Positions 1-5,726 of a DNA stretch of 5,726 nt are shown here, piece after piece. Source of the DNA: a virus; the IMG/VR virus record IMGVR_UViG_3300045988_001819, positions 1 to 5,726 of that record, one strand, 5' to 3'. Position 1 is the stretch's first letter. Each line of letters starts with the position of its first letter. The notes beneath the pieces are model-generated. The model was not told where the DNA came from, searched no databases, and saw nothing but the letters and a program-made list of their open reading frames with translations. The translations under genes and the position numbers were made by a program.

Positions 1-119
1 CTCCTTTCTGTGGTTGATTTGTGCAAATACCACCGGTTCGCCAGCGCTGGAGGCAGAGCATTCCTCCTTTACATTTGGACGCCGGTTCCCCTATGTCAAT
101 TTTACCAAAAAAAAAAAAC
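1..119. repeat. Left copy of the exact 119-nt terminal direct repeat (circular-contig overlap)
   Basis: Base-by-base comparison shows identity with 5608-5726, including the A12 run at 107-118. Confidence 0.95.
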
Positions 120-147
120 GCAAGGTCAACTTTCGTCAACCTCACGT
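107..147 (-). terminator. Intrinsic terminator downstream of the 52-aa acidic ORF
   Basis: The minus-sense RNA reads ACGUGAGGUUGAC-GAAA-GUUGACCUUGCGU followed by a U11-12 run. That is a 13-bp stem with a GNRA loop. Four of the pairs are G-U, which become C-A mismatches on the other strand, so the hairpin only forms well in minus-sense RNA. Confidence 0.8.
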
Positions 148-155
148 TTTTTGGT

Positions 156-314
156 TTATCTTTCGTATTCTTTGAGTTTTTCACAGATTGCGTTTGTCCA
201 TTCGTCATCCATGTTGTACTCTTCTTTTATCTGCTCTCGGTCTTCGCTTTTCCATCCACCGTCATATAGTGCTGCTGCGCAGTTTTCAACTTCTTCTTCA
301 TAGTAGCTTTTCAT
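156..314 (-). CDS. Hypothetical 52-aa highly acidic, aromatic-rich protein (MKSYYEEEVENCAAALYDGGWKSEDREQIKEEYNMDDEWTNAICEKLKEYER)
   Basis: Hand translation runs from ATG 314-312 to TAA 158-156. AGGAGG lies 6 nt upstream of the ATG. The protein has 16 D/E against 7 K/R, and 7 Y/W. It has its own consensus promoter upstream and a strong terminator downstream. It is below the ORF-track size cutoff. Confidence 0.7.
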   Translation of the reverse strand: MKSYYEEEVENCAAALYDGGWKSEDREQIKEEYNMDDEWTNAICEKLKEYER

Positions 315-333
315 GGTGCGCCTCCTATTTTGT

Positions 334-352
334 GGTGTGCTCTTCTTACACC
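334..352 (-). promoter_or_regulatory. Candidate operator: inverted repeat GGTGT-N9-ACACC starting 3 nt downstream of the P1 -10 hexamer
   Basis: Read directly from the sequence. A repeat of the same geometry, AGTGT-N9-ACACT, sits at the same offset from the second promoter (1994-2012). Confidence 0.5.
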
Positions 353-355
353 TTT

Positions 356-384
356 ATTATACACCTAAAACATACACTTGTCAA
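356..384 (-). promoter_or_regulatory. P1: perfect consensus sigma70/sigmaA promoter (TTGACA-17 nt-TATAAT) driving the 52-aa ORF
   Basis: On the minus strand, TTGACA is at 384-379, the spacer is exactly 17 nt, and TATAAT is at 361-356. The promoter is intergenic and has an A-rich tract (GGCAAAATT) upstream. Confidence 0.75.
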
Positions 385-429: not shown

Positions 430-469
430 AATGAAAAGGACGGCGTAGCTTTCCGTGACTACGCCGTCC
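430..469 (-). terminator. Probable intrinsic terminator after VP4
   Basis: The minus strand reads GGACGGCGTAG-(10-nt loop)-CTACGCCGTCC, a perfect 11-bp GC-rich stem at 438-469. It is followed by TTTTCATTC and lies about 70 nt after the VP4 stop codon. Confidence 0.6.
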
Positions 470-537
470 TGTGTCCTCTATTCTGTCGTTCTTCAGCTTG
501 ACTTGTCTTTTGCTCTGCTTTTTGATCGCTGTGGCCG

Positions 538-1638
538 CTAGATTTCTTCCCGGATAAGCTTCTTAAACCTCTCTTGTATTTTCTGCTCTTCTTTGTTATA
601 ATACTCTTGTATGGTTAAGCCGTTGTTCTTTTGTAGCTTGGCAAAGAATGCGTCGTTGGCTTTTCGGCGTCGTTCTCTTTTTATTGCCTTTAGCTCGCTA
701 GACTCGGCTTTTTCTATTGTCTCTTCGATGCTCTCCATCTCGCTTTCTGTTAGTGGCTTTGCGTTGGAGTGCTCTAAATCAAATAGCTTATCAAAATACC
801 TTGGTGGTTTGCAAATCCTTCCGTTCTTTAGCTGTATCTTATCTCTTTCGTAGATTTCTGCTGCGTGTTCATAGTAATATTGTGCTCCTATTGCTGGCTT
901 TAGGCTCATATTGCACTTTTCCGGCAAAATGCCCATTTCTTCGTAAAATTTTTTTCCTTCCTTTCCGTATACTTTTTTCGTGGTGTATCTTGCTGTATAG
1001 GCCATTGCTTTCCATTCAGCTGGTGCGATGACTACATGACCCTTTCCCCAGATTTTTGTTATCCAATCTACGTTATAATAGACTGCTCCGTTTTTCCTTT
1101 TGTACTCCTTCATGTCGTTTTTTTCAATTGGCAGGTCGTATACGATCGCATGATAATGCGGTCGGTGTGTTTTCCCGCCATATTCCCCGCATTGGAAGTA
1201 CATCAAATTTCCTTTGTTAAGTTCATGGTATTCTAGATACCTTCGCAGTCTTTTCCAGAATGCTTTCATATCTTCATAGTTGAGGCTGTAATTTTCAACA
1301 AGCACTTCGCCTGTTCCTTCGTCCCATGTCATTCGATATGGGACGTTTTCATTGTCGTATGTAAGAGTTAGGAACCACGCATTTTCATGATATGGCAGTT
1401 CCATTTCCATCCTGTTTGCCCAACTGGATGCTGCTGTCATTTTGCACGCTGGACAGTGTCCGCATGGTAATAGCTGCGCTTCTTCGGTTTTCAACATTTC
1501 CAGAAGCTTCTTCTCTTTGCCGATTTCGCCTTTTTTGCTGTTGCCGTTTTGGTAGTATTTACCAGTTCTGGACAGGTACGCTTTTAGTGATATGATCTGT
1601 CCGGTGTTGAGTCGTACGAGTGGTCTTGTACATGACAT
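538..1638 (-). CDS. VP4: Replication initiation protein VP4 (HUH rolling-circle endonuclease, phiX174 gpA-like superfamily)
   Basis: Rolling-circle Rep motifs are visible: FLTLTYD (motif I), HYHAIVY (HUH, codons at 1150-1158) and AYTARYTTKK (paired Tyr codons at 997-999 and 985-987). A CGHCPAC...W.NR cysteine cluster matches what I recall for gokushovirus VP4. I place the start at ATG 1638 (MSCTRPL...). The in-frame GTG at 1653 given in the ORF track is an alternative. Confidence 0.92.
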   Translation of the reverse strand: MSCTRPLVRLNTGQIISLKAYLSRTGKYYQNGNSKKGEIGKEKKLLEMLKTEEAQLLPCGHCPACKMTAASSWANRMEMELPYHENAWFLTLTYDNENVPYRMTWDEGTGEVLVENYSLNYEDMKAFWKRLRRYLEYHELNKGNLMYFQCGEYGGKTHRPHYHAIVYDLPIEKNDMKEYKRKNGAVYYNVDWITKIWGKGHVVIAPAEWKAMAYTARYTTKKVYGKEGKKFYEEMGILPEKCNMSLKPAIGAQYYYEHAAEIYERDKIQLKNGRICKPPRYFDKLFDLEHSNAKPLTESEMESIEETIEKAESSELKAIKRERRRKANDAFFAKLQKNNGLTIQEYYNKEEQKIQERFKKLIREEI

Positions 1639-1659
1639 ATAGTTTCGCTGCACCTTCCC

Positions 1660-1706
1660 GTCACCTAGCCCCTATAACCTTCTTGATGTTATAGGGGCTA
1701 GGTGAC
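1660..1706. other. Perfect 19-bp inverted repeat with a 9-nt loop, immediately upstream of the VP4 translation start
   Basis: GTCACCTAGCCCCTATAAC (1660-1678) pairs with GTTATAGGGGCTAGGTGAC (1688-1706). The loop is CTTCTTGAT on the plus strand and ATCAAGAAG on the gene-sense strand. No U-run follows it on the gene-sense strand. Confidence 0.85.
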
Positions 1707-1752
1707 ACAATTTTTAGCTGCCGCCCAAAAAACCTAATGGATAAATGTTGCA

Positions 1753-1780
1753 GAAGTGACCGAGTTCGCTCGGTCACTTC
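1753..1780. other. Perfect 12-bp stem-loop overlapping the stop codon of the RHH gene
   Basis: GAAGTGACCGAG-TTCG-CTCGGTCACTTC. In gene-sense RNA it is followed by UGCAACAUUUAUCC, a poor U-tract, so it is at best a weak terminator or attenuator. On the plus strand it is followed by GTTTCTTT. Confidence 0.8.
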
Positions 1781-1977
1781 GTTTCTTTGAGCTTCCACTT
1801 ATTGGCGAATGTGTATCCCGTTTCCTTTTCGCAGTAGCATACTATTGCTTCTCGTATGATGTCGCTGGTGGTCATCTTCTGCCCCCTGTTCATCATTTCG
1901 TGTTCGAGACTTTCTAGTGCTACCTGCTCTCTGTCGGTAAGATTGACATTAAATCTCTTCGTGATCTGCGTTCTCAT
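1774..1977 (-). CDS. Ribbon-helix-helix (CopG/Arc/MetJ-type) DNA-binding protein, 67 aa; putative transcriptional repressor
   Basis: The sequence reads as strand-helix-turn-helix. KRFNVNLT has the alternating beta-strand pattern, DREQVALESLEHEMM would be helix 1, a G-containing turn follows, and TSDIIREAIVCY would be helix 2. This compares with CopG KRLTITLSESVLENLEKMAREMGLSKSAMISVALENY. AGGAGG lies 5 nt upstream of ATG 1977. The gene has its own near-consensus promoter. Confidence 0.7.
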   Translation of the reverse strand: MRTQITKRFNVNLTDREQVALESLEHEMMNRGQKMTTSDIIREAIVCYCEKETGYTFANKWKLKETK

Positions 1978-1993
1978 ACTAGCCTCCTAGCTA

Positions 1994-2012
1994 AGTGTGT
2001 GATTGGTACACT
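1994..2012 (-). promoter_or_regulatory. Candidate operator: inverted repeat AGTGT-N9-ACACT starting 3 nt downstream of the P2 -10 hexamer
   Basis: Arm length, spacing and offset match the P1 repeat at 334-352. The arms differ by a paired G-to-A and C-to-T change that keeps the symmetry. Confidence 0.5.
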
Positions 2013-2015
2013 CAT

Positions 2016-2044
2016 AATATACACCTCTTTTCTCCACTTGTCAA
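2016..2044 (-). promoter_or_regulatory. P2: near-consensus promoter (TTGACA-17 nt-TATATT) driving the RHH gene and probably VP4
   Basis: On the minus strand, TTGACA is at 2044-2039, the spacer is 17 nt, and TATATT is at 2021-2016. It begins 5 nt after the VP2 stop codon. It matches P1 at 27 of 38 positions from the -35 onward (hand count). Confidence 0.7.
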
Positions 2045-2049
2045 CTATT

Positions 2050-2988
2050 TTATGGAAGCATCGGAAGACCCGGCAGTAAGTTGAATTGGCCTTTTGCTCC
2101 AAGGCCTGCGTCAAGTCGCCCTTCGTTCTTGAACTGGTGACCTTCGGTTTTCTGTTCCTGCTGTGTGGTGCTGTCCATCCGCTCACCCAGCTGGCCAACG
2201 GTTTTTGCGCTGCTGCTTACGGTTTGCTGTTGCATCTGTTCGAGGTGCTCAGCTGTCCAGTAGTCAGAACTTTGTTTCGCGTTGTTGATGGCCGTTTGAA
2301 AGTTCTGCACGATCTGTGCGGTGTTGTTGCCGTAGTCATACATTGCCTGCATGGTTGCGTTTTTGGCTGCTGGTGCTGCCAGAGCTTGAGCGTGTGCGAA
2401 GGTCTGACCGCCACCGAGACTTCCATAGCCTCCTGATGGCGTTTGTGCCCCATAGCCGTTATAGGCTGCTAAGATAGGATTCAATCCCGCTGCTTTAAGG
2501 TCTGCCACGCCTCTCTGATAGCTGGTATTGGCCATTCTCTCTTGCCAGTTTCTTTGTTTTTGGGCTTCAGCGGAGTTGTATCGCATTGCGCTGCTTTGGC
2601 TCGCTGCGCTCATTGCATTGGATGCTAGAGCGTTTCCCATGTTGAGAAGATTGCTCATCATCCATGTACCGGTCTGCAAGTCGTTGGCAGTTTTTGCGTT
2701 CGCTGCGTTGAAGTCCGCTGCGGTTTGAGCATTGTTGCCGGTCGGCGTTCCGAGTGCTGTTGCCAGCAGATTTCCCAGTGCGCTTGTGTTGCCGGTCTGG
2801 ACGCTCCCACCTGCGCTTGTAGTGTCCTGTGCGGTGCTTCCCATGGTTGTACCGCTCTGGATAGTCGAGTTCATACTACCCTGCGTTTTGGCGCTGCTGG
2901 TGCTTCCTTTGATTGCGCTGTAGATTCCATACAGTGTGTTTGCCAGAGTTAGGCCGCCTTTGACAAGGCCCATTAGCCCGATTGCCAT
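2050..2988 (-). CDS. VP2: Minor capsid / DNA pilot protein VP2
   Basis: The N-terminus is Gly-rich and hydrophobic (MAIGLMGLVKGGLTLANTLYGIY), and the middle is a long A/G/S/T/Q-rich segment. I recognise the block NSAEAQKQRNWQERMANTSYQRGVADLKAAGLNPILA as the conserved core of gokushovirus VP2. GGAGG lies 7 nt upstream of the ATG. The gene immediately follows VP1. Confidence 0.85.
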   Translation of the reverse strand: MAIGLMGLVKGGLTLANTLYGIYSAIKGSTSSAKTQGSMNSTIQSGTTMGSTAQDTTSAGGSVQTGNTSALGNLLATALGTPTGNNAQTAADFNAANAKTANDLQTGTWMMSNLLNMGNALASNAMSAASQSSAMRYNSAEAQKQRNWQERMANTSYQRGVADLKAAGLNPILAAYNGYGAQTPSGGYGSLGGGQTFAHAQALAAPAAKNATMQAMYDYGNNTAQIVQNFQTAINNAKQSSDYWTAEHLEQMQQQTVSSSAKTVGQLGERMDSTTQQEQKTEGHQFKNEGRLDAGLGAKGQFNLLPGLPMLP

Positions 2989-3000
2989 TGCGCTTCCTCC

Positions 3001-4623
3001 TTAGATGGTATCAAGGCCCGGGATGCTGTAGATAGGCATTGCCCTTGTCCACGTCTGGTCGAAGTAGAAGTTGCAGATAAATTGACGGGATTTGTCGCTC
3101 TGAATTGCGATAGTCCGGTCAATGTTTTCCGTGCCCTCTTTAATCCAGTCGCTCGAGAGAGTTGGGAGACTCGTATACTTGTCCGCGTAGTGCCACGCGT
3201 CCAAGGTCTGCGTGTAAGTGCTGCGCATTTCTCCCGTTATCATGTTTGTTCGGTACCTATAGTCGGCCCAGGCCTCCTGGTACCCAAACACCTCCTCGTC
3301 TTTTGCGTTGCCTTGTGCGTAGATCTCCTGATTGAGTACTGCTTGTTCTCCGAGGTTTGCAAGCATTGGGTCATAGTAGGAAAAGCGTGTGCTGCGTGTC
3401 CACATTCGAGAAAGGCCCTGCTGATAGCTGTGATCAACTCGCACCGCTGCCAGACCGATGATGAAGCCATGCTCCGTTGCGCTGTACGTTGCCATGTTCC
3501 GGCTCATCGTGGTCATGGAGAATGCTGCTGTGTTGCCCTGCGGACTTGTTGAATCCGTGCTGGATGTCTGAATGACCTGATTGATGTTGATAGGCAGTCT
3601 ATACCCGCCGATGTATTCCGATCGGTCAAGCCGTGCATCTGGACTGGTGACGCCCCAAGCTCCTTGCAGGATTTCCTTGTACCGCGTGCCGGTGCGTGCA
3701 TCTCTCTCTAAGATATGCTGTACTGCGATAGCCTGCCGCAGCTCGTTGATGGTCGCGGCTGTTACGTTGCTCATGTCTGCGCCAAGTACTGGGTGCAGGC
3801 TATCGTCTCTTTCGGTGTATACCTGTGCTGGTTTCGCTCCGCTTGTTTTGTCTCCGTTTACGCCTGCAAAGTAAGGGATGAAGTTTGTTATTAAGTTTAG
3901 GTCTGTGTTGTCCAGTTTTTCTTTGAGGCTTGCTGTGCCGTATCCATAAATCGGCGCCGCTCCTGTCATCGGCAGCGTCACTCCCTCGCCTTTCTGAGGA
4001 CTCGGTAAGCAGCTCGTGTAGTAATCTTTGTATTTACAGACTTTGAGCGGCAGGCCTCCGGCTTCGGCGTCGGTGAGTGCCGTTCCTGCGTTGCTTCCTG
4101 CGGTCGTGGCGTCTGATTTGCTCATCGTGACAGGCTGCTGCAGATTTTCGTCTCGAAACCATTCGTTCCAGATTTTGGCATAGGCCCTGAAAGGCAAGCT
4201 GTTCACCTGAAGGTTTTCTACTCCGGTCGGAATGCCGAAGTAATCCGCCAGCGTGCCCACTTTCCAGCCTCCGGCCGGTGCGGTCGTTTTCGGAGTCGTG
4301 TACTCTACCGTTTCCGCCCAGAAGGTCGAGTCGTTCTGGCCCATGAGATTTTCGAAGTGCTCCCACAGCAGCCGCGACGGCACGAAGAAGAAGTAAAAGT
4401 CACAGTAGCAGTTATCCATGACAGGATACAGCGGTGTGCTCATACGCATCAGAGCATTCAGATCGATCTTTGCCGTGTCTGCCGGGAGTACCTCATCACA
4501 GTAGATCGGGACGAGATCACCCTCATTCATCGTGGTCAGGAGAGAATAGTCTCGTTTGAAGCGTGCGCGCGGCACGTTTGCATGAGGCACTTGGCTGTAG
4601 TGTTGTTCAGCGTTGCGGTTCAT
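3001..4623 (-). CDS. VP1: Major capsid protein VP1 (Microviridae F-type jelly-roll capsid)
   Basis: The 540-aa protein carries family hallmarks. These are the N-terminus ...RARFKRDYSLLTTMNEGDLVPIYCDEVLPADT, then CKYKDYYTSCLPSPQKG, TINELRQAIAVQHILERDARTGTRYKEILQGAWGV and SEYIGG. A segment of about 80 aa between PQKG and TINELR fits the gokushovirus insertion loop. Confidence 0.95.
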   Translation of the reverse strand: MNRNAEQHYSQVPHANVPRARFKRDYSLLTTMNEGDLVPIYCDEVLPADTAKIDLNALMRMSTPLYPVMDNCYCDFYFFFVPSRLLWEHFENLMGQNDSTFWAETVEYTTPKTTAPAGGWKVGTLADYFGIPTGVENLQVNSLPFRAYAKIWNEWFRDENLQQPVTMSKSDATTAGSNAGTALTDAEAGGLPLKVCKYKDYYTSCLPSPQKGEGVTLPMTGAAPIYGYGTASLKEKLDNTDLNLITNFIPYFAGVNGDKTSGAKPAQVYTERDDSLHPVLGADMSNVTAATINELRQAIAVQHILERDARTGTRYKEILQGAWGVTSPDARLDRSEYIGGYRLPININQVIQTSSTDSTSPQGNTAAFSMTTMSRNMATYSATEHGFIIGLAAVRVDHSYQQGLSRMWTRSTRFSYYDPMLANLGEQAVLNQEIYAQGNAKDEEVFGYQEAWADYRYRTNMITGEMRSTYTQTLDAWHYADKYTSLPTLSSDWIKEGTENIDRTIAIQSDKSRQFICNFYFDQTWTRAMPIYSIPGLDTI

Positions 4624-5116
4624 TCCTTATTTTCTCCTTTCTGCACAGTTTCATCTGTGCCAGGATTGGGCTTTTTTGTTCATCCTGCTGAATTTTGATG
4701 CCCATCTTGTTTAGCCATTCTTTTTCACCGGCTGTTGCCATCCAGTTTTCGAAGTTCATACCGAAAGCCTGACGAATATTCAGCGGAAGCTGATTGAACT
4801 GCTCCCGTTTCTCGTTCATCATGTTCATGTATTCGGTGTAGGTCTGCGGTAGTTTGCTGGTGTCGATGTACCATCCCGGTTTTGCCAGTACACTTTCGTC
4901 GCCGGCAGCGTACCGGCTCAGAATTGCCATGACGTCGCATTCGTCTTTATAGCTCTGGATTTTCTCGTAGGTGTCCACTTCGCCCACCTTTTCCAGATAT
5001 GGCTGCCCTCGGTCGTCATACCGTTCTTTGTATTCCGGTTCAAACCTGTTGCCCGGCTCGTTCGGCAGCGCCAGCGGTTTTTCGTCCTCGTAGGGTTTAA
5101 AGATTCTTACTCCCAT
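4607..5116 (-). CDS. VP3: Internal scaffolding protein VP3
   Basis: The 169-aa protein sits directly upstream of VP1 and overlaps its start by 17 nt. The motifs YKDECDVMAILSRY and QLPLNIRQAFGMNFENWM match my recollection of the Chlamydia-phage-type scaffold family. GGAG lies 7 nt upstream of the ATG. Confidence 0.8.
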   Translation of the reverse strand: MGVRIFKPYEDEKPLALPNEPGNRFEPEYKERYDDRGQPYLEKVGEVDTYEKIQSYKDECDVMAILSRYAAGDESVLAKPGWYIDTSKLPQTYTEYMNMMNEKREQFNQLPLNIRQAFGMNFENWMATAGEKEWLNKMGIKIQQDEQKSPILAQMKLCRKEKIRNEPQR

Positions 5117-5360
5117 TGAGCTGCTCCTTTTTCATGAGTTCGATATTGTACATGAGCATCGGCAGCGCCAGCGGCTTGATCTGGCCGCTTTCGTTGTCGT
5201 ACTTGCCCAGAAGATAGACCCGCTTATCCTCGCAGTCGGCTTTCTCCATTTCCTGTGCCATCCATCTGAAGGTGCGGTCGGCTACCTTTTCATTGACCAC
5301 TATCAGATTGCCGAAGATGCCAGATAGTTCGTCTTTTACTGCGTATACCTGAAATTCCAT
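5097..5360 (-). CDS. Conserved small non-structural protein (gokushovirus ORF5/VP5-type, function uncertain)
   Basis: The 87-aa sequence MEFQVYAVKDELSGIFGNLI...ADRTFRWM...YLLGKYDNESGQI fits a pattern I recall from this family: V-Y/F-x-V-x-D-x-K/L-x-G-x-F-G, then A-x-R-x-F, then L-G-x-Y/F-D-x-x-x-G. GGAG lies 7 nt upstream of the ATG. It overlaps the VP3 start by 20 nt. Confidence 0.55.
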   Translation of the reverse strand: MEFQVYAVKDELSGIFGNLIVVNEKVADRTFRWMAQEMEKADCEDKRVYLLGKYDNESGQIKPLALPMLMYNIELMKKEQLNGSKNL

Positions 5361-5372
5361 GATGATTCTCCT

Positions 5373-5492
5373 TTACAGACGGATGCCGCCGCGCGACGGC
5401 TTCGGGTTGATGTTGATTTTCTTTGTCTTTTTTGCGGTGTTGGTAAACACTCGCTTATCCTTTTTCGGATTGACCGGCATTCTGTGAGCCAT
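5373..5492 (-). CDS. Small basic DNA-binding/packaging protein (phiX174 J-like, gokushovirus ORF8-type), 39 aa: MAHRMPVNPKKDKRVFTNTAKKTKKININPKPSRGGIRL
   Basis: Hand translation runs from ATG 5492-5490 to TAA 5375-5373. The protein has 12 K/R in 39 aa and a C-terminal RGGIRL. AAGGAGG lies upstream (GGAGG 8 nt from the ATG). It is below the ORF-track cutoff. Confidence 0.7.
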   Translation of the reverse strand: MAHRMPVNPKKDKRVFTNTAKKTKKININPKPSRGGIRL

Positions 5493-5607: not shown

Positions 5608-5726
5608 CTCCTTTCTGTGGTTGATTTGTGCAAATACCACCGGTTCGCCAGCGCTGGAGGCAGAGCATTCCTCCTTTACATTTGGACGCCGGTTCCCCTA
5701 TGTCAATTTTACCAAAAAAAAAAAAC
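5608..5726. repeat. Right copy of the exact 119-nt terminal direct repeat (circular-contig overlap)
   Basis: Identical to 1-119. It begins inside the Shine-Dalgarno region of the 35-aa ORF and ends after the A12 run. Confidence 0.95.
5678..5706 (-). promoter_or_regulatory. Weak candidate promoter P3 ahead of the structural operon (equivalent to 71-99)
   Basis: On the minus strand, TTGACA (5706-5701) sits just downstream of the T12 run and GGTAAAA, which could act as an UP element. The hexamer 17 nt downstream is AAATGT, only 2/6 to TATAAT. Confidence 0.25.

What the first reader, a model, noticed from the sequence alone, without database searches (positions are those of the whole stretch)
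1994..2044. P2 and P1 (334-384) are paralogous promoters with an identical repeat array, likely a shared operator
Aligned from the -35, the two regions are identical at 27 of 38 positions. Both contain RGTGKA hexamers at the same three offsets, 13 bp apart. In P1 these are AGTGTA 378-373, GGTGTA 365-360 and GGTGTA 352-347. In P2 they are AGTGGA 2038-2033, GGTGTA 2025-2020 and AGTGTA 2012-2007. Each region also has an inverted copy giving a 5-N9-5 palindrome that starts 3 nt after the -10. That palindrome is GGTGT-N9-ACACC in P1 and AGTGT-N9-ACACT in P2, so the difference between them is a compensating pair. The array runs from the -35 to about +20. RHH repressors such as omega, MetJ and CopG typically bind arrays of short direct or inverted repeats. 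The likely transcription start falls inside the first arm, which favours a DNA operator over an RNA hairpin.
Basis: seen in the sequence. Interest (0 to 1): 0.8.

Follow-up and report, generated by a model that had tools for sequence, protein, structure and literature searches.

The report
Shared repressor boxes on two gokushovirus promoters
A small gut ssDNA phage (gokushovirus) carries the same short GTGTA boxes, 13 bp apart, around the two strongest promoters of its genome. One of these promoters drives a tiny ribbon-helix-helix-like protein plus the replication initiator, which looks like a plasmid-style self-repressing replication switch not yet described for this virus family.

Summary
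The window is a complete circular 5,607-nt gokushovirus genome with all genes on the minus strand. P1 (384..356) and P2 (2044..2016) are its two best sigma-70 matches. They match at 27 of 38 positions, and the RGTGKA hexamers and 5-N9-5 palindromes lie exactly where reported.

In about 60 related genomes, the element shared by both promoters is a direct repeat, GGTGTA-N7-RGTGTA, bracketing the -10. P1 adds a conserved upstream box. P2 adds a conserved downstream inverted box. The P1 palindrome and the first P2 hexamer are specific to the window's clade.

P1/P2 identity is confined to -35, -10 and the boxes, so paralogy by descent is not shown.

P2 always precedes a small ORF with ribbon-helix-helix topology and an invariant KR.N.NLT strand, followed by the Rep gene VP4. 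Relatives lacking the cassette, and a third conserved promoter, lack the boxes.

Best reading (about 0.6): an autoregulated RHH–Rep cassette like CopG–RepB that also controls an accessory-gene cassette. Binding is untested.

The parts
2039..2044 (-). P2 -35 hexamer TTGACA, starting 5 nt after the VP2 stop codon
   Evidence: Conserved in relatives.
2033..2038 (-). P2 site 1, AGTGGA. A degenerate box, not conserved family-wide (AACACA, GACACA, TGAGTC and others).
   Evidence: 20 variants in 45 unique P2 sequences; mean pairwise identity 0.50.
2020..2025 (-). P2 site 2, GGTGTA. Its last two bases are the first two of the -10.
   Evidence: 45 of 45 unique P2 sequences.
2016..2021 (-). P2 -10 hexamer TATATT, 17-nt spacer
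2007..2012 (-). P2 site 3, AGTGTA, spanning the expected transcription start
   Evidence: RGTGTA in 45 of 45 unique P2 sequences. Rare GGTGTT and GGTGGA variants appear in extra metagenome loci.
1994..1999 (-). P2 site 4, CACACT. An inverted box that forms AGTGT-N9-ACACT with site 3.
   Evidence: yACACy in 43 of 45 unique P2 sequences and xACGCC in 2. The outer pair varies A-T, G-C and G-T.
1774..1977 (-). 67-aa RHH-like gene, the proposed repressor
   Evidence: AF2 model with an extended N-terminus plus two helices. Invariant R8, N10, L13, T14, S38, R42. hhalign to CopG E 6.7e-5. Pfam RHH_1 sub-threshold in 7 of 22 members.
538..1653 (-). VP4, the rolling-circle replication initiator. It lies downstream of the RHH gene with no sense promoter or terminator between them, so it is the likely co-transcribed target.
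   Evidence: PF23343 3e-17 and phrog_942 2e-93. No minus-strand promoter or terminator in 1774..1653.
437..470 (-). Intrinsic terminator ending the P2 (RHH-VP4) transcription unit
   Evidence: 13-bp stem plus a T-rich tail
379..384 (-). P1 -35 hexamer TTGACA
373..378 (-). P1 site 1, AGTGTA
   Evidence: AGTGTA in 29 of 34 unique P1 sequences
360..365 (-). P1 site 2, GGTGTA, overlapping the -10 TATAAT (361..356)
   Evidence: GGTGTA in 30 of 34 unique P1 sequences
347..352 (-). P1 site 3, GGTGTA. This is the last conserved element before the variable cargo leader.
   Evidence: GGTGTA in 24 of 34, with 7 one-base variants. It is lost in 3 sequences where recombination falls right after the -10.
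334..339 (-). P1 inverted arm CACACC (forms GGTGT-N9-ACACC). Clade-specific; probably not a required part.
   Evidence: Only 5 of 34 unique P1 sequences carry it, and the palindrome is broken in L007 (GATGT).
156..314 (-). 52-aa accessory ORF driven by P1. Function unknown; this is a variable cargo position.
   Evidence: No Pfam or PHROG hit. Different ORFs occupy this slot in relatives.

Best explanation
The 67-aa ORF encodes a ribbon-helix-helix DNA-binding protein. Its dimers are proposed to recognise RGTGTA boxes spaced 13 bp centre to centre.

The core operator is the direct pair GGTGTA-N7-RGTGTA that brackets the -10 hexamer and covers the transcription start. It is present at both P2 and P1. 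Auxiliary boxes extend the array: an inverted box 13 bp downstream at P2, and a direct box abutting the -35 at P1.

Occupancy would block RNA polymerase binding or open-complex formation. P2 would then negatively autoregulate the RHH gene and the co-transcribed Rep gene VP4, the same circuit logic as copG-repB of pMV158. The same protein would also repress the accessory-gene cassette at P1. The structural genes appear to have their own box-free extended -10 promoter.

Shown here: the sequences, their conservation pattern, the gene order, and the co-occurrence of boxes with the gene.

Inferred: the RHH fold (moderately supported), DNA binding, repression rather than activation, and RHH-VP4 co-transcription.
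For: 1. P1 and P2 are the two best sigma-70 matches in the genome. Their identity is confined to -35, -10 and the boxes. Within-genome P1-vs-P2 identity over 36 genomes is: -35 0.94, site 2 0.97, -10 0.87, site 3 0.83, against 0.25-0.40 for spacers, discriminator and outer sites.
2. Conservation footprint. P2 sites 2 and 3 are present in 45 of 45 unique sequences and site 4 in 43 of 45. P1 sites 1-3 have mean pairwise identity 0.81-0.95, against 0.65 for the 7-nt spacer.
3. P2 lies immediately upstream of the RHH-like ORF in all 59 clade genomes.
4. The protein's helix A and C-terminal tail diverge strongly, yet the predicted DNA-reading strand K/E-R-x-N-x-N-L-T and the SD(I/C)IR helix-B cap stay invariant or nearly so. 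This parallels the invariance of GTGTA.
5. RHH fold: AF2 gives an extended 5-13 segment plus two helices, pLDDT 73. hhalign to CopG gives E 6.7e-5 and probability 64% over strand and both helices. RHH_1 hits are sub-threshold in 7 of 22 members.
6. Negative controls. The closest relatives without the cassette (Dulem viruses 202, 205, 206 and chicken microvirus mg7_10) have no P2 and no RGTGTA array at the promoter after VP4. The third promoter P3 (T-tract plus TGnTAAAAT), conserved in 43 of 60 genomes, has no boxes.
7. The boxes are unchanged in genomes whose VP4 is only 47% identical to the window's. This argues against Rep as the binder.
8. Precedent: CopG is co-transcribed with repB and contacts about 50 bp covering -35 and -10 of its own promoter (PMC2724298).
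Against: - There is no experimental or structural evidence of binding.
- The RHH assignment is below curated thresholds. Pfam gives no hit for the window protein. PDB sequence searches find nothing. Foldseek finds nothing significant.
- A 13-bp spacing puts successive boxes about 86 degrees apart around the helix. This differs from Arc and CopG (boxes 9 bp centre to centre) and from omega's 7-bp repeats (from memory).
- Site 2 is fused to the -10 and site 3 covers the start site, so part of their conservation could be promoter-intrinsic.
- There are only five negative-control genomes, and three of them may encode a different RHH-like protein.
- Many sampled genomes come from one IMG/VR project and are phylogenetically non-independent.
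Confidence: 0.6

Rival explanations
1. The boxes are promoter-intrinsic. GGTG next to the -10 and RGTGTA at the start site would be contacts for the host RNA polymerase or sigma factor (an unusual upstream -10 extension, discriminator or initial transcribed sequence). They would make these promoters strong, with no phage repressor involved.
For: Site 2 is contiguous with the -10 and site 3 spans the expected +1. The 3-nt discriminators (AAA in P1, ATG in P2) are also nearly invariant. The string GGTGTATAHTATGRGTGTA occurs in chromosomal promoters of gut Clostridia, including a conserved thioredoxin promoter and several with TTGACA at the right distance.
Against: The number of genome hits (38) is close to the roughly 26 expected by chance. 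The conserved P3 promoter of the same genomes and the promoters of cassette-less relatives lack the boxes. This reading does not explain the conserved P1 site 1 in the spacer or the conserved inverted P2 site 4 at about +20. It also does not explain why one hexamer recurs at a fixed 13-bp period. GGTG directly abutting the -10 does not fit the TGn extended -10.
Confidence: 0.15
2. The P2 palindrome acts as a nucleic-acid hairpin. It could be a 5' stem-loop on the RHH-VP4 mRNA, or a hairpin in the single-stranded viral DNA (for example a priming or packaging signal).
For: The palindrome is conserved in all unique P2 sequences. The outermost pair changes A-T to G-C with G-T intermediates, and two lineages show T-G at an inner pair. 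Only 3 of 500 shuffles reach the observed covariation score.
Against: The hairpin is very weak: -2.3 kcal/mol as ssDNA and not significant against shuffles as RNA. The genuine hairpin 300 nt downstream folds at -20.9 kcal/mol. Only one pair covaries, and the four inner pairs are essentially invariant and identical to the direct boxes elsewhere. The 7-nt loop has a conserved AATC core. With a standard -10-to-start distance, transcription begins inside the 5' arm. P1 has the same left arm but usually no right arm. There is no Rfam match.
Confidence: 0.1
3. The boxes belong to replication rather than transcription. They could be iterons for the Rep protein VP4. Alternatively, the RHH protein could be an accessory factor that helps the HUH nuclease at the origin, as TraY or TrwA help relaxases.
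For: HUH initiators often use short direct repeats next to a hairpin. RHH accessory proteins of relaxases also autoregulate their operons (from memory). The RHH gene sits next to VP4. Some relatives' RHH proteins end in EEEDLPF or DDDDLPY, which resembles the SSB C-terminal tip.
Against: The boxes are identical in genomes with VP4 types only 47% identical. The array is duplicated at P1, and two origins would be harmful in a rolling-circle replicon. Relatives with a related VP4 but no cassette lack the boxes. A far better origin candidate exists about 290 nt downstream of P2: a 16-18 bp hairpin with an invariant TCAAGARG loop. The boxes are positioned precisely relative to -35 and -10.
Confidence: 0.1
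4. The boxes are binding sites for a host transcription factor that the phage exploits to sense host state.
For: A GTGTA-N7-TACAC palindrome is broadly similar in style to sites of dimeric bacterial regulators. The host is unknown.
Against: The boxes co-occur strictly with the phage's own small DNA-binding gene. Direct repeats at a 13-bp period are atypical for host helix-turn-helix dimers. No match to a known host operator was recognised (from memory only).
Confidence: 0.05

Closest known systems
CopG / Pcr / repB copy-control cassette of rolling-circle plasmid pMV158 (PMC2724298)
   Same: A small RHH gene lies immediately upstream of, and is apparently co-transcribed with, an HUH rolling-circle initiator. 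The repeat-bearing region spans about 50 bp covering -35 and -10 of the same promoter. The logic is negative autoregulation of Rep supply. hhalign aligns the strand and both helices (E 6.7e-5).
   Different: CopG's primary site is a 13-bp pseudo-symmetric element of two inverted 4-bp boxes 5 bp apart, centred on the -35. Here the core is a direct repeat of 6-bp boxes, 13 bp centre to centre, bracketing the -10. No conserved antisense RNA partner was found. The replicon is a phage, and a second promoter carries the same boxes.
Omega repressor of inc18 plasmid pSM19035 (from memory)
   Same: An RHH protein that controls several promoters of one replicon through arrays of a short repeat, which can occur in direct or inverted orientation. 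It links copy-number control to other functions.
   Different: Omega heptads are contiguous 7-bp units in arrays of 7-10. Here the boxes are separated by 7 variable bp, with only 3-4 per promoter.
Arc and Mnt repressors of phage P22 immI (for the Arc operator)
   Same: Phage-encoded RHH repressors of about 50-80 aa whose operators overlap promoters.
   Different: Arc and Mnt belong to a tailed dsDNA temperate phage. The Arc operator is two inverted TAGA boxes 5 bp apart. They control antirepressor, not a replication initiator.
ParG of plasmid TP228 (from memory)
   Same: RHH autoregulator that reads arrays of 4-bp boxes in either orientation, separated by AT-rich spacers.
   Different: ParG boxes have an 8-bp period and belong to a partition system. 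It has no link to a Rep gene.
phiX174-type Microviridae gene expression (from memory; accessory-gene survey in PMC9239249)
   Same: Same virus family, with constitutive sigma-70 promoters and terminators in a 5-6 kb circular genome.
   Different: No transcription factor is known in phiX174. The survey of microvirus accessory genes lists methyltransferases and lysis or peptidase genes, not regulators.

Membership tests
Ribbon-helix-helix (CopG/Arc/MetJ) superfamily | N-terminal beta-strand with alternating hydrophobic and polar residues, followed by two helices joined by a short turn | tested here: met
   The AF2 model has an extended 5-13 segment and helices at 15-30 and 37-53, pLDDT 73. The strand K-R-F-N-V-N-L-T alternates, with R8 and N10 invariant and N12 kept in at least 90%.
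Ribbon-helix-helix (CopG/Arc/MetJ) superfamily | Significant sequence or profile match to curated RHH families or solved RHH structures | tested here: inconclusive
   The window protein has no Pfam hit. RHH_1 matches 7 of 22 homologues, best E 0.001, below cut-off. phrog_7325 (CopG-like) gives E 0.065. hhalign to CopG gives probability 64% and E 6.7e-5. PDB sequence searches and Foldseek found nothing significant.
Ribbon-helix-helix (CopG/Arc/MetJ) superfamily | Obligate homodimer forming a two-stranded antiparallel ribbon that enters the major groove | not testable with these tools
   Only monomer prediction was available, and no protein-DNA modelling.
CopG-type cop-rep cassette of pMV158-family plasmids | The RHH gene directly precedes the rolling-circle initiator gene and is co-transcribed with it from one promoter | tested here: inconclusive
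   The gene order P2-RHH-VP4 holds in all 59 clade genomes. No sense-strand promoter or intrinsic terminator lies between RHH and VP4. Co-transcription itself is inferred.
CopG-type cop-rep cassette of pMV158-family plasmids | Operator is a 13-bp pseudo-symmetric element (two inverted 4-bp boxes 5 bp apart) overlapping the -35 | tested here: not met
   The boxes are 9 bp apart (13 bp centre to centre). The conserved core pair is direct and brackets the -10 (CopG operator).
CopG-type cop-rep cassette of pMV158-family plasmids | Second control element: an antisense RNA against the rep leader | tested here: not met
   The window has an antisense promoter-like site at 1569-1596, but it is absent in nearly all relatives.
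Omega-type heptad arrays (inc18 plasmids) | Contiguous 7-bp repeats, at least two per site, in direct or inverted orientation | tested here: not met
   The 6-bp boxes are separated by 7 variable bp.
Omega-type heptad arrays (inc18 plasmids) | The same repeat is present at several promoters of the replicon | tested here: met
   P1 and P2 carry the boxes; P3 does not.
Sigma-70/sigma-A housekeeping promoter | TTGACA and TATAAT hexamers 17 bp apart, upstream of a gene with a ribosome-binding site | tested here: met
   P1 scores 12/12 and P2 11/12, both with 17-nt spacers. AGGAGG precedes both start codons. Transcription starts were not mapped.

The most novel reading that the evidence does not exclude
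A widespread clade of gut gokushoviruses may run a plasmid-like, RHH-autoregulated Rep circuit. This would let the phage throttle replication and accessory-gene expression, and possibly persist as a low-copy episome or carrier state rather than lysing at once. The repressor would read 6-bp boxes at a 13-bp period, in either orientation at the outer positions. That binding geometry has not been described for RHH proteins. This would be the first transcription factor and operator system described in Microviridae.
Probability: 0.2. Interest if true: 0.75.

Novelty: new member of a known kind. Interest (0 to 1): 0.55.

Why it matters
Microviridae are treated as phages without their own transcription factors. 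Their accessory-gene repertoire is reported as minimal: methyltransferases and lysis genes (PMC9239249). The RHH ORF is unannotated in all four GenBank relatives.

A dedicated repressor that controls the replication initiator would give this abundant gut virus group a regulatory layer. It would also offer a concrete, testable handle on an open question: how gut gokushoviruses, whose hosts and lifestyles are largely unknown, persist.

The system is very small: a 67-aa protein and two roughly 50-bp operators. It can be tested directly with synthetic DNA and could be reused as a compact repressor/operator pair.

Tried and rejected
- RNA or ssDNA hairpin at P1/P2. The folding energies are marginal, and covariation is limited to the outer pair.
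- Known RNA family in the leaders. Rfam finds none at E <= 1.
- Antisense-RNA partner like pMV158 RNA II. The window has a plus-strand promoter-like site at 1569-1596 and plus-strand terminator-like hairpins, but the promoter is not conserved.
- Prophage or episome copies in bacterial genomes. A genome-contig scan with the P2 core gave 38 hits, close to the roughly 26 expected by chance. None encodes RHH, VP1 or VP4, and one group is a conserved thioredoxin promoter.
- dif-like (XerCD) site in P2. TGTATATTATG resembles part of E. coli dif (from memory), but there is no XerC arm and the -10 position varies, so this was dropped.
- PDB sequence searches and Foldseek for the RHH protein gave nothing significant.
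- A degenerate P1 pattern scan of viral contigs was too unspecific, with more than 120 mostly unrelated hits.
- Looking for more cassette-less close relatives in IMG/VR using Dulem VP4 returned only the RHH clade.
- Looking for lineages with a changed reading strand and changed boxes found only minor variants.
- Generic repeat statistics show the P1 array alone is not beyond chance.

Full report
WHAT THE WINDOW IS

The first and last 119 nt are identical, so the window is a complete circular genome of 5,607 nt. All genes are on the window's minus strand:
- major capsid VP1 (4623..3001; PF02305, E 5e-164)
- pilot protein VP2 (2988..2050)
- scaffold VP3 (5116..4607)
- VP5 (5360..5097)
- a 39-aa basic protein (5492..5373)
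- the rolling-circle initiator VP4 (1653..538; PF23343, phrog_942)

This is a gokushovirus (Microviridae). The nearest GenBank records are pig and human gut microviruses at about 80% nucleotide identity.

Two small extra ORFs lie on either side of VP4. The 67-aa ORF (1977..1774) sits between VP2 and VP4. A 52-aa ORF (314..156) sits after VP4.

CHECK OF THE OBSERVATION

Read on the minus strand, both regions are exactly as described.
- P1: TTGACA-AGTGTA-tgtttta-GGTG/TATAAT-aaa-GGTGTA-agaagag-CACACC
- P2: TTGACA-AGTGGA-gaaaaga-GGTG/TATATT-atg-AGTGTA-ccaatca-CACACT

They match at 27 of 38 positions from the -35. They are the two best sigma-70 matches in the genome, at 12/12 and 11/12, each with a 17-nt spacer.

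Every identity except two falls in the -35, the -10 or the hexamers. The 10 remaining positions match at 2 of 10, which is random.

Genome-wide, RGTGKA is not enriched: 13 copies against about 11 expected. A generic search for any three similar hexamers at equal spacing finds 0.49 arrays per Markov-simulated genome. One array alone would therefore not be remarkable.

What is remarkable is the co-location. Six of the 13 copies sit at the same offsets in the two strongest promoters. The second notable point is what related genomes show.

COMPARATIVE EVIDENCE

I collected 59 non-redundant genomes of the clade, plus 26 further metagenome loci:
- GenBank:
- IMG/VR:
- Logan assemblies:
- metagenome loci:

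Results for P2:
- P2 is present in all 59 genomes. Strict matching finds it in 57, and L158 and L164 carry a TATAGT variant and an 18-nt-spacer variant.
- P2 always lies directly upstream of a homologue of the 67-aa ORF.
- In 45 unique P2 sequences, site 2 (GGTGTA) is invariant. Site 3 is RGTGTA in 45 of 45.
- The inverted site 4 is yACACy in 43 of 45.
- Site 1 has 20 variants: AACACA 13, AGTGGA 4, GACACA 4, TGAGTC and others.

Results for P1:
- P1 is present in 36 of 59 genomes.
- In 34 unique sequences, site 1 is AGTGTA in 29 and site 2 is GGTGTA in 30.
- Site 3 is GGTGTA in 24, with seven one-base variants. It is missing only where a recombination junction falls right after the -10.
- The 7-nt spacer between sites 1 and 2 has 10 variants, with mean pairwise identity 0.65 against 0.94-0.95 for the boxes.
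- After site 3 the sequences diverge completely, because different cargo genes follow.

The ACACC arm that makes the P1 palindrome occurs only in the window's own clade (5 of 34) and is broken in L007.

Comparing P1 with P2 inside each of 36 genomes gives these identities:
- -35: 0.94
- site 1: 0.40
- spacer: 0.36
- site 2: 0.97
- -10: 0.87
- discriminator: 0.33
- site 3: 0.83
- gap: 0.35
- site 4: 0.25

Family-wide, the shared element is therefore the direct pair GGTGTA-N7-RGTGTA bracketing the -10. P1 adds an upstream direct box and P2 adds a downstream inverted box. There is no residual similarity that would indicate duplication by descent.

CONTROLS

First control: the nearest relatives without the cassette are Dulem viruses 202, 205 and 206 (VP4 about 50% identical) and chicken microvirus mg7_10. 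Between VP2 and VP4 they have only a hairpin. They do have a promoter after VP4, but no RGTGTA array anywhere near it.

Second control: within the clade, a third promoter-like element lies after the P1 cassette and just before the structural genes. It is a terminator T-tract followed by TGnTAAAAT (window 107..99, minus strand). It is conserved in 43 of 60 genomes and carries no boxes.

Third control: the boxes are unchanged in genomes that have swapped in a VP4 only 47% identical to the window's, such as L036, L038, L177 and L178.

THE PROTEIN

The family is narrow. There are 22 clusters at 90% identity, all from contigs under 6 kb, with no precomputed Pfam domain. The ORF is unannotated in the four GenBank relatives.

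AlphaFold2 with the family alignment gives an extended N-terminal segment (5-13) followed by helices at 15-30 and 37-53, with pLDDT 73. This is the RHH monomer topology.

Across very divergent members the invariant residues are M1, R8, N10, L13, T14, S38 and R42. K7, N12, D39, I41, A44 and I45 are kept in at least 90%. These are the outward-facing residues of the predicted strand (R-x-N-x-N) and the N-cap of helix B. In known RHH proteins these parts touch DNA (established knowledge of Arc and CopG). Helix A and the C-terminal tail vary freely.

Sequence and structure evidence is weak but consistent:
- RHH_1 matches 7 of 22 members below threshold.
- phrog_7325, CopG-like, gives E 0.065.
- PDB sequence searches and Foldseek find nothing significant.

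I take the RHH assignment as likely, not proven.

MECHANISM

The best-supported reading is as follows.
- RHH dimers bind the boxes.
- The core pair covers the -10 and the start site, so binding excludes RNA polymerase or blocks open-complex formation.
- P2 therefore autoregulates the RHH gene and VP4. VP4 follows with no sense-strand promoter or terminator in between, and the unit ends at the strong terminator at 470..437.
- P1, which carries the same core, puts a variable accessory gene under the same control.

This is the circuit of copG-repB on pMV158. There, the RHH repressor is co-transcribed with the rolling-circle initiator and contacts about 50 bp spanning -35 and -10 (PMC2724298).

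The proposed operator geometry differs. Arc and CopG use two inverted 4-bp boxes 5 bp apart. Here 6-bp boxes sit 13 bp centre to centre, and the core pair is direct. The outer positions (site 1 of P2, site 4 of P1) sometimes carry the box in the opposite orientation (ACAC instead of GTGT) or nothing at all. This recalls omega and ParG arrays (from memory) but is only weakly supported.

Binding, repression and co-transcription are all inferences.

RIVALS

Promoter-intrinsic signals. This is plausible for site 2 and site 3 because they touch the -10 and +1. The same 19-mer also occurs in some Clostridia promoters. However, that hit count is near chance. P3 and the cassette-less relatives lack the boxes. 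Site 1 of P1 and site 4 of P2 are not explained.

Hairpin. The P2 palindrome is universal and its outer pair covaries with G-T intermediates. Against this, the structure is worth only about -2 kcal/mol, and the inner pairs are simply the invariant box. The loop has a conserved AATC core, and the expected start site lies inside the left arm.

Replication origin or iterons. This is disfavoured for four reasons: the box is invariant across VP4 types, the array is duplicated at P1, cassette-less relatives lack the boxes, and a much better origin candidate exists (see below).

Host factor. This cannot be excluded, but it does not explain the strict linkage to the phage's own DNA-binding gene.

NOVELTY

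Full-text searches found no paper linking Microviridae or gokushoviruses with RHH or CopG proteins. The global survey of microvirus accessory genes mentions only methyltransferases and lysis or peptidase genes.

The kind of system (an RHH autorepressor with a repeat operator, in front of a Rep gene) is well known. Its presence in a Microviridae clade and the 13-bp direct-repeat layout are new. All contigs carrying it are genome-sized, and no copy was found in bacterial genomes. There is therefore no evidence for integration. A persistent episomal lifestyle is speculation.

VERDICT

There is a shared operator-like core and a linked RHH-like gene. However, the promoters are not demonstrably paralogous, the full 'identical array' and the P1 palindrome are clade-specific, and binding is untested.

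Noticed in passing
window 1660-1706 (minus strand), between the RHH stop and the VP4 start: A very stable hairpin (-20.9 kcal/mol as ssDNA) with a 16-18 bp stem. The stem covaries among about 60 relatives while the loop nATCAAGARG(G) is invariant. It is also present upstream of VP4 in cassette-less Dulem viruses. On the opposite strand the loop reads TCTTGAT, which resembles the phiX174/pC194 nick core (from memory). It has no U-tract on the coding strand. It is a candidate replication origin or priming signal.
   Followed up: partly
window 99-107 (minus strand; repeated at 5706-5714), just after the hairpin and T-tract at 152..113: TGGTAAAAT, an extended -10 type promoter placed directly after a terminator T-run and shortly before the first structural-module gene. 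T-tract plus TGnTAnAAT is conserved in 43 of 60 relatives. It is the likely promoter of the structural genes and carries no GTGTA boxes. The consensus scan missed it because it has no -35 at 16-18 nt.
   Followed up: partly
window 113-384 (minus strand): P1, a small ORF and a terminator together form a moron-like cassette. The ORF differs between relatives (a 52-aa MKSYYEE...AALYDGGW... family, MTLKSYRIEM..., MKQWKFLAYIYY... and others). About 23 of 59 genomes show no P1 by the pattern used, including some complete circular genomes (e.g. L015, L039, L178); a few others keep a remnant of P1 without site 3. The 52-aa protein has no Pfam or PHROG match.
   Followed up: partly
RHH homologues in L001, L003, L004, L008, L010, L020, L026, L032, L034, L035 (C-terminus ...EEEDLPF) and L167 (...DDDDLPY): Several relatives' RHH proteins end in an acidic tail plus LPF or LPY, resembling the bacterial SSB C-terminal tip (DDDIPF, from memory). 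The window protein instead ends in ...YTFANKWKLKETK. This may hint at recruitment of host replication or repair proteins.
   Followed up: no
L012 3953-4211, and the same place in L184 (Dulem viruses 205 and 206): In relatives lacking the P2-RHH cassette, the promoter after VP4 (TTTACA-16-TAAAAT) drives a 62-aa ORF, MKHNKTVRMSNSTQAAIYLIKSKLY.KGVTTDSHVI.YAVENLF..., which by eye also has a strand-helix-helix pattern. It has no Pfam hit. It may be a different small regulator at a different locus.
   Followed up: partly
window 1974-2015 (minus strand): An ATG directly after the P2 -10 opens a 13-codon ORF (MSVPITHLARRLV) whose TGA overlaps the RHH start codon (ATGA). The ATG triplet is present in 45 of 45 unique P2 sequences (ATA in one extra metagenome locus), but the short frame is not conserved outside the window's clade. 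Why this triplet, and AAA at the same place in P1, are so constant is unexplained.
   Followed up: partly
window 1753-1780 and 1569-1596 (plus strand): A terminator-like hairpin on the non-coding strand overlaps the RHH stop codon. An antisense promoter-like site (TGGACA-16-TATGAT with an upstream TG) lies inside the VP4 5' end. Together they suggested a countertranscript, but the promoter is not conserved in relatives.
   Followed up: yes
window 1-119 and 5608-5726: An exact 119-nt terminal direct repeat, which is an assembly overlap of a circular genome. Features in 1-119 are therefore duplicated at the other end.
   Followed up: yes
L196, L199, L207, L213, L215, L216, L219, L221, L222 (Eubacteriales and Clostridia MAGs): A conserved thioredoxin-gene upstream region contains GGTGTATAATATGGGTGTA, the same string as the phage core operator, but without a recognisable -35. 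This is probably coincidence, though it could hint at host-lineage promoter context.
   Followed up: partly
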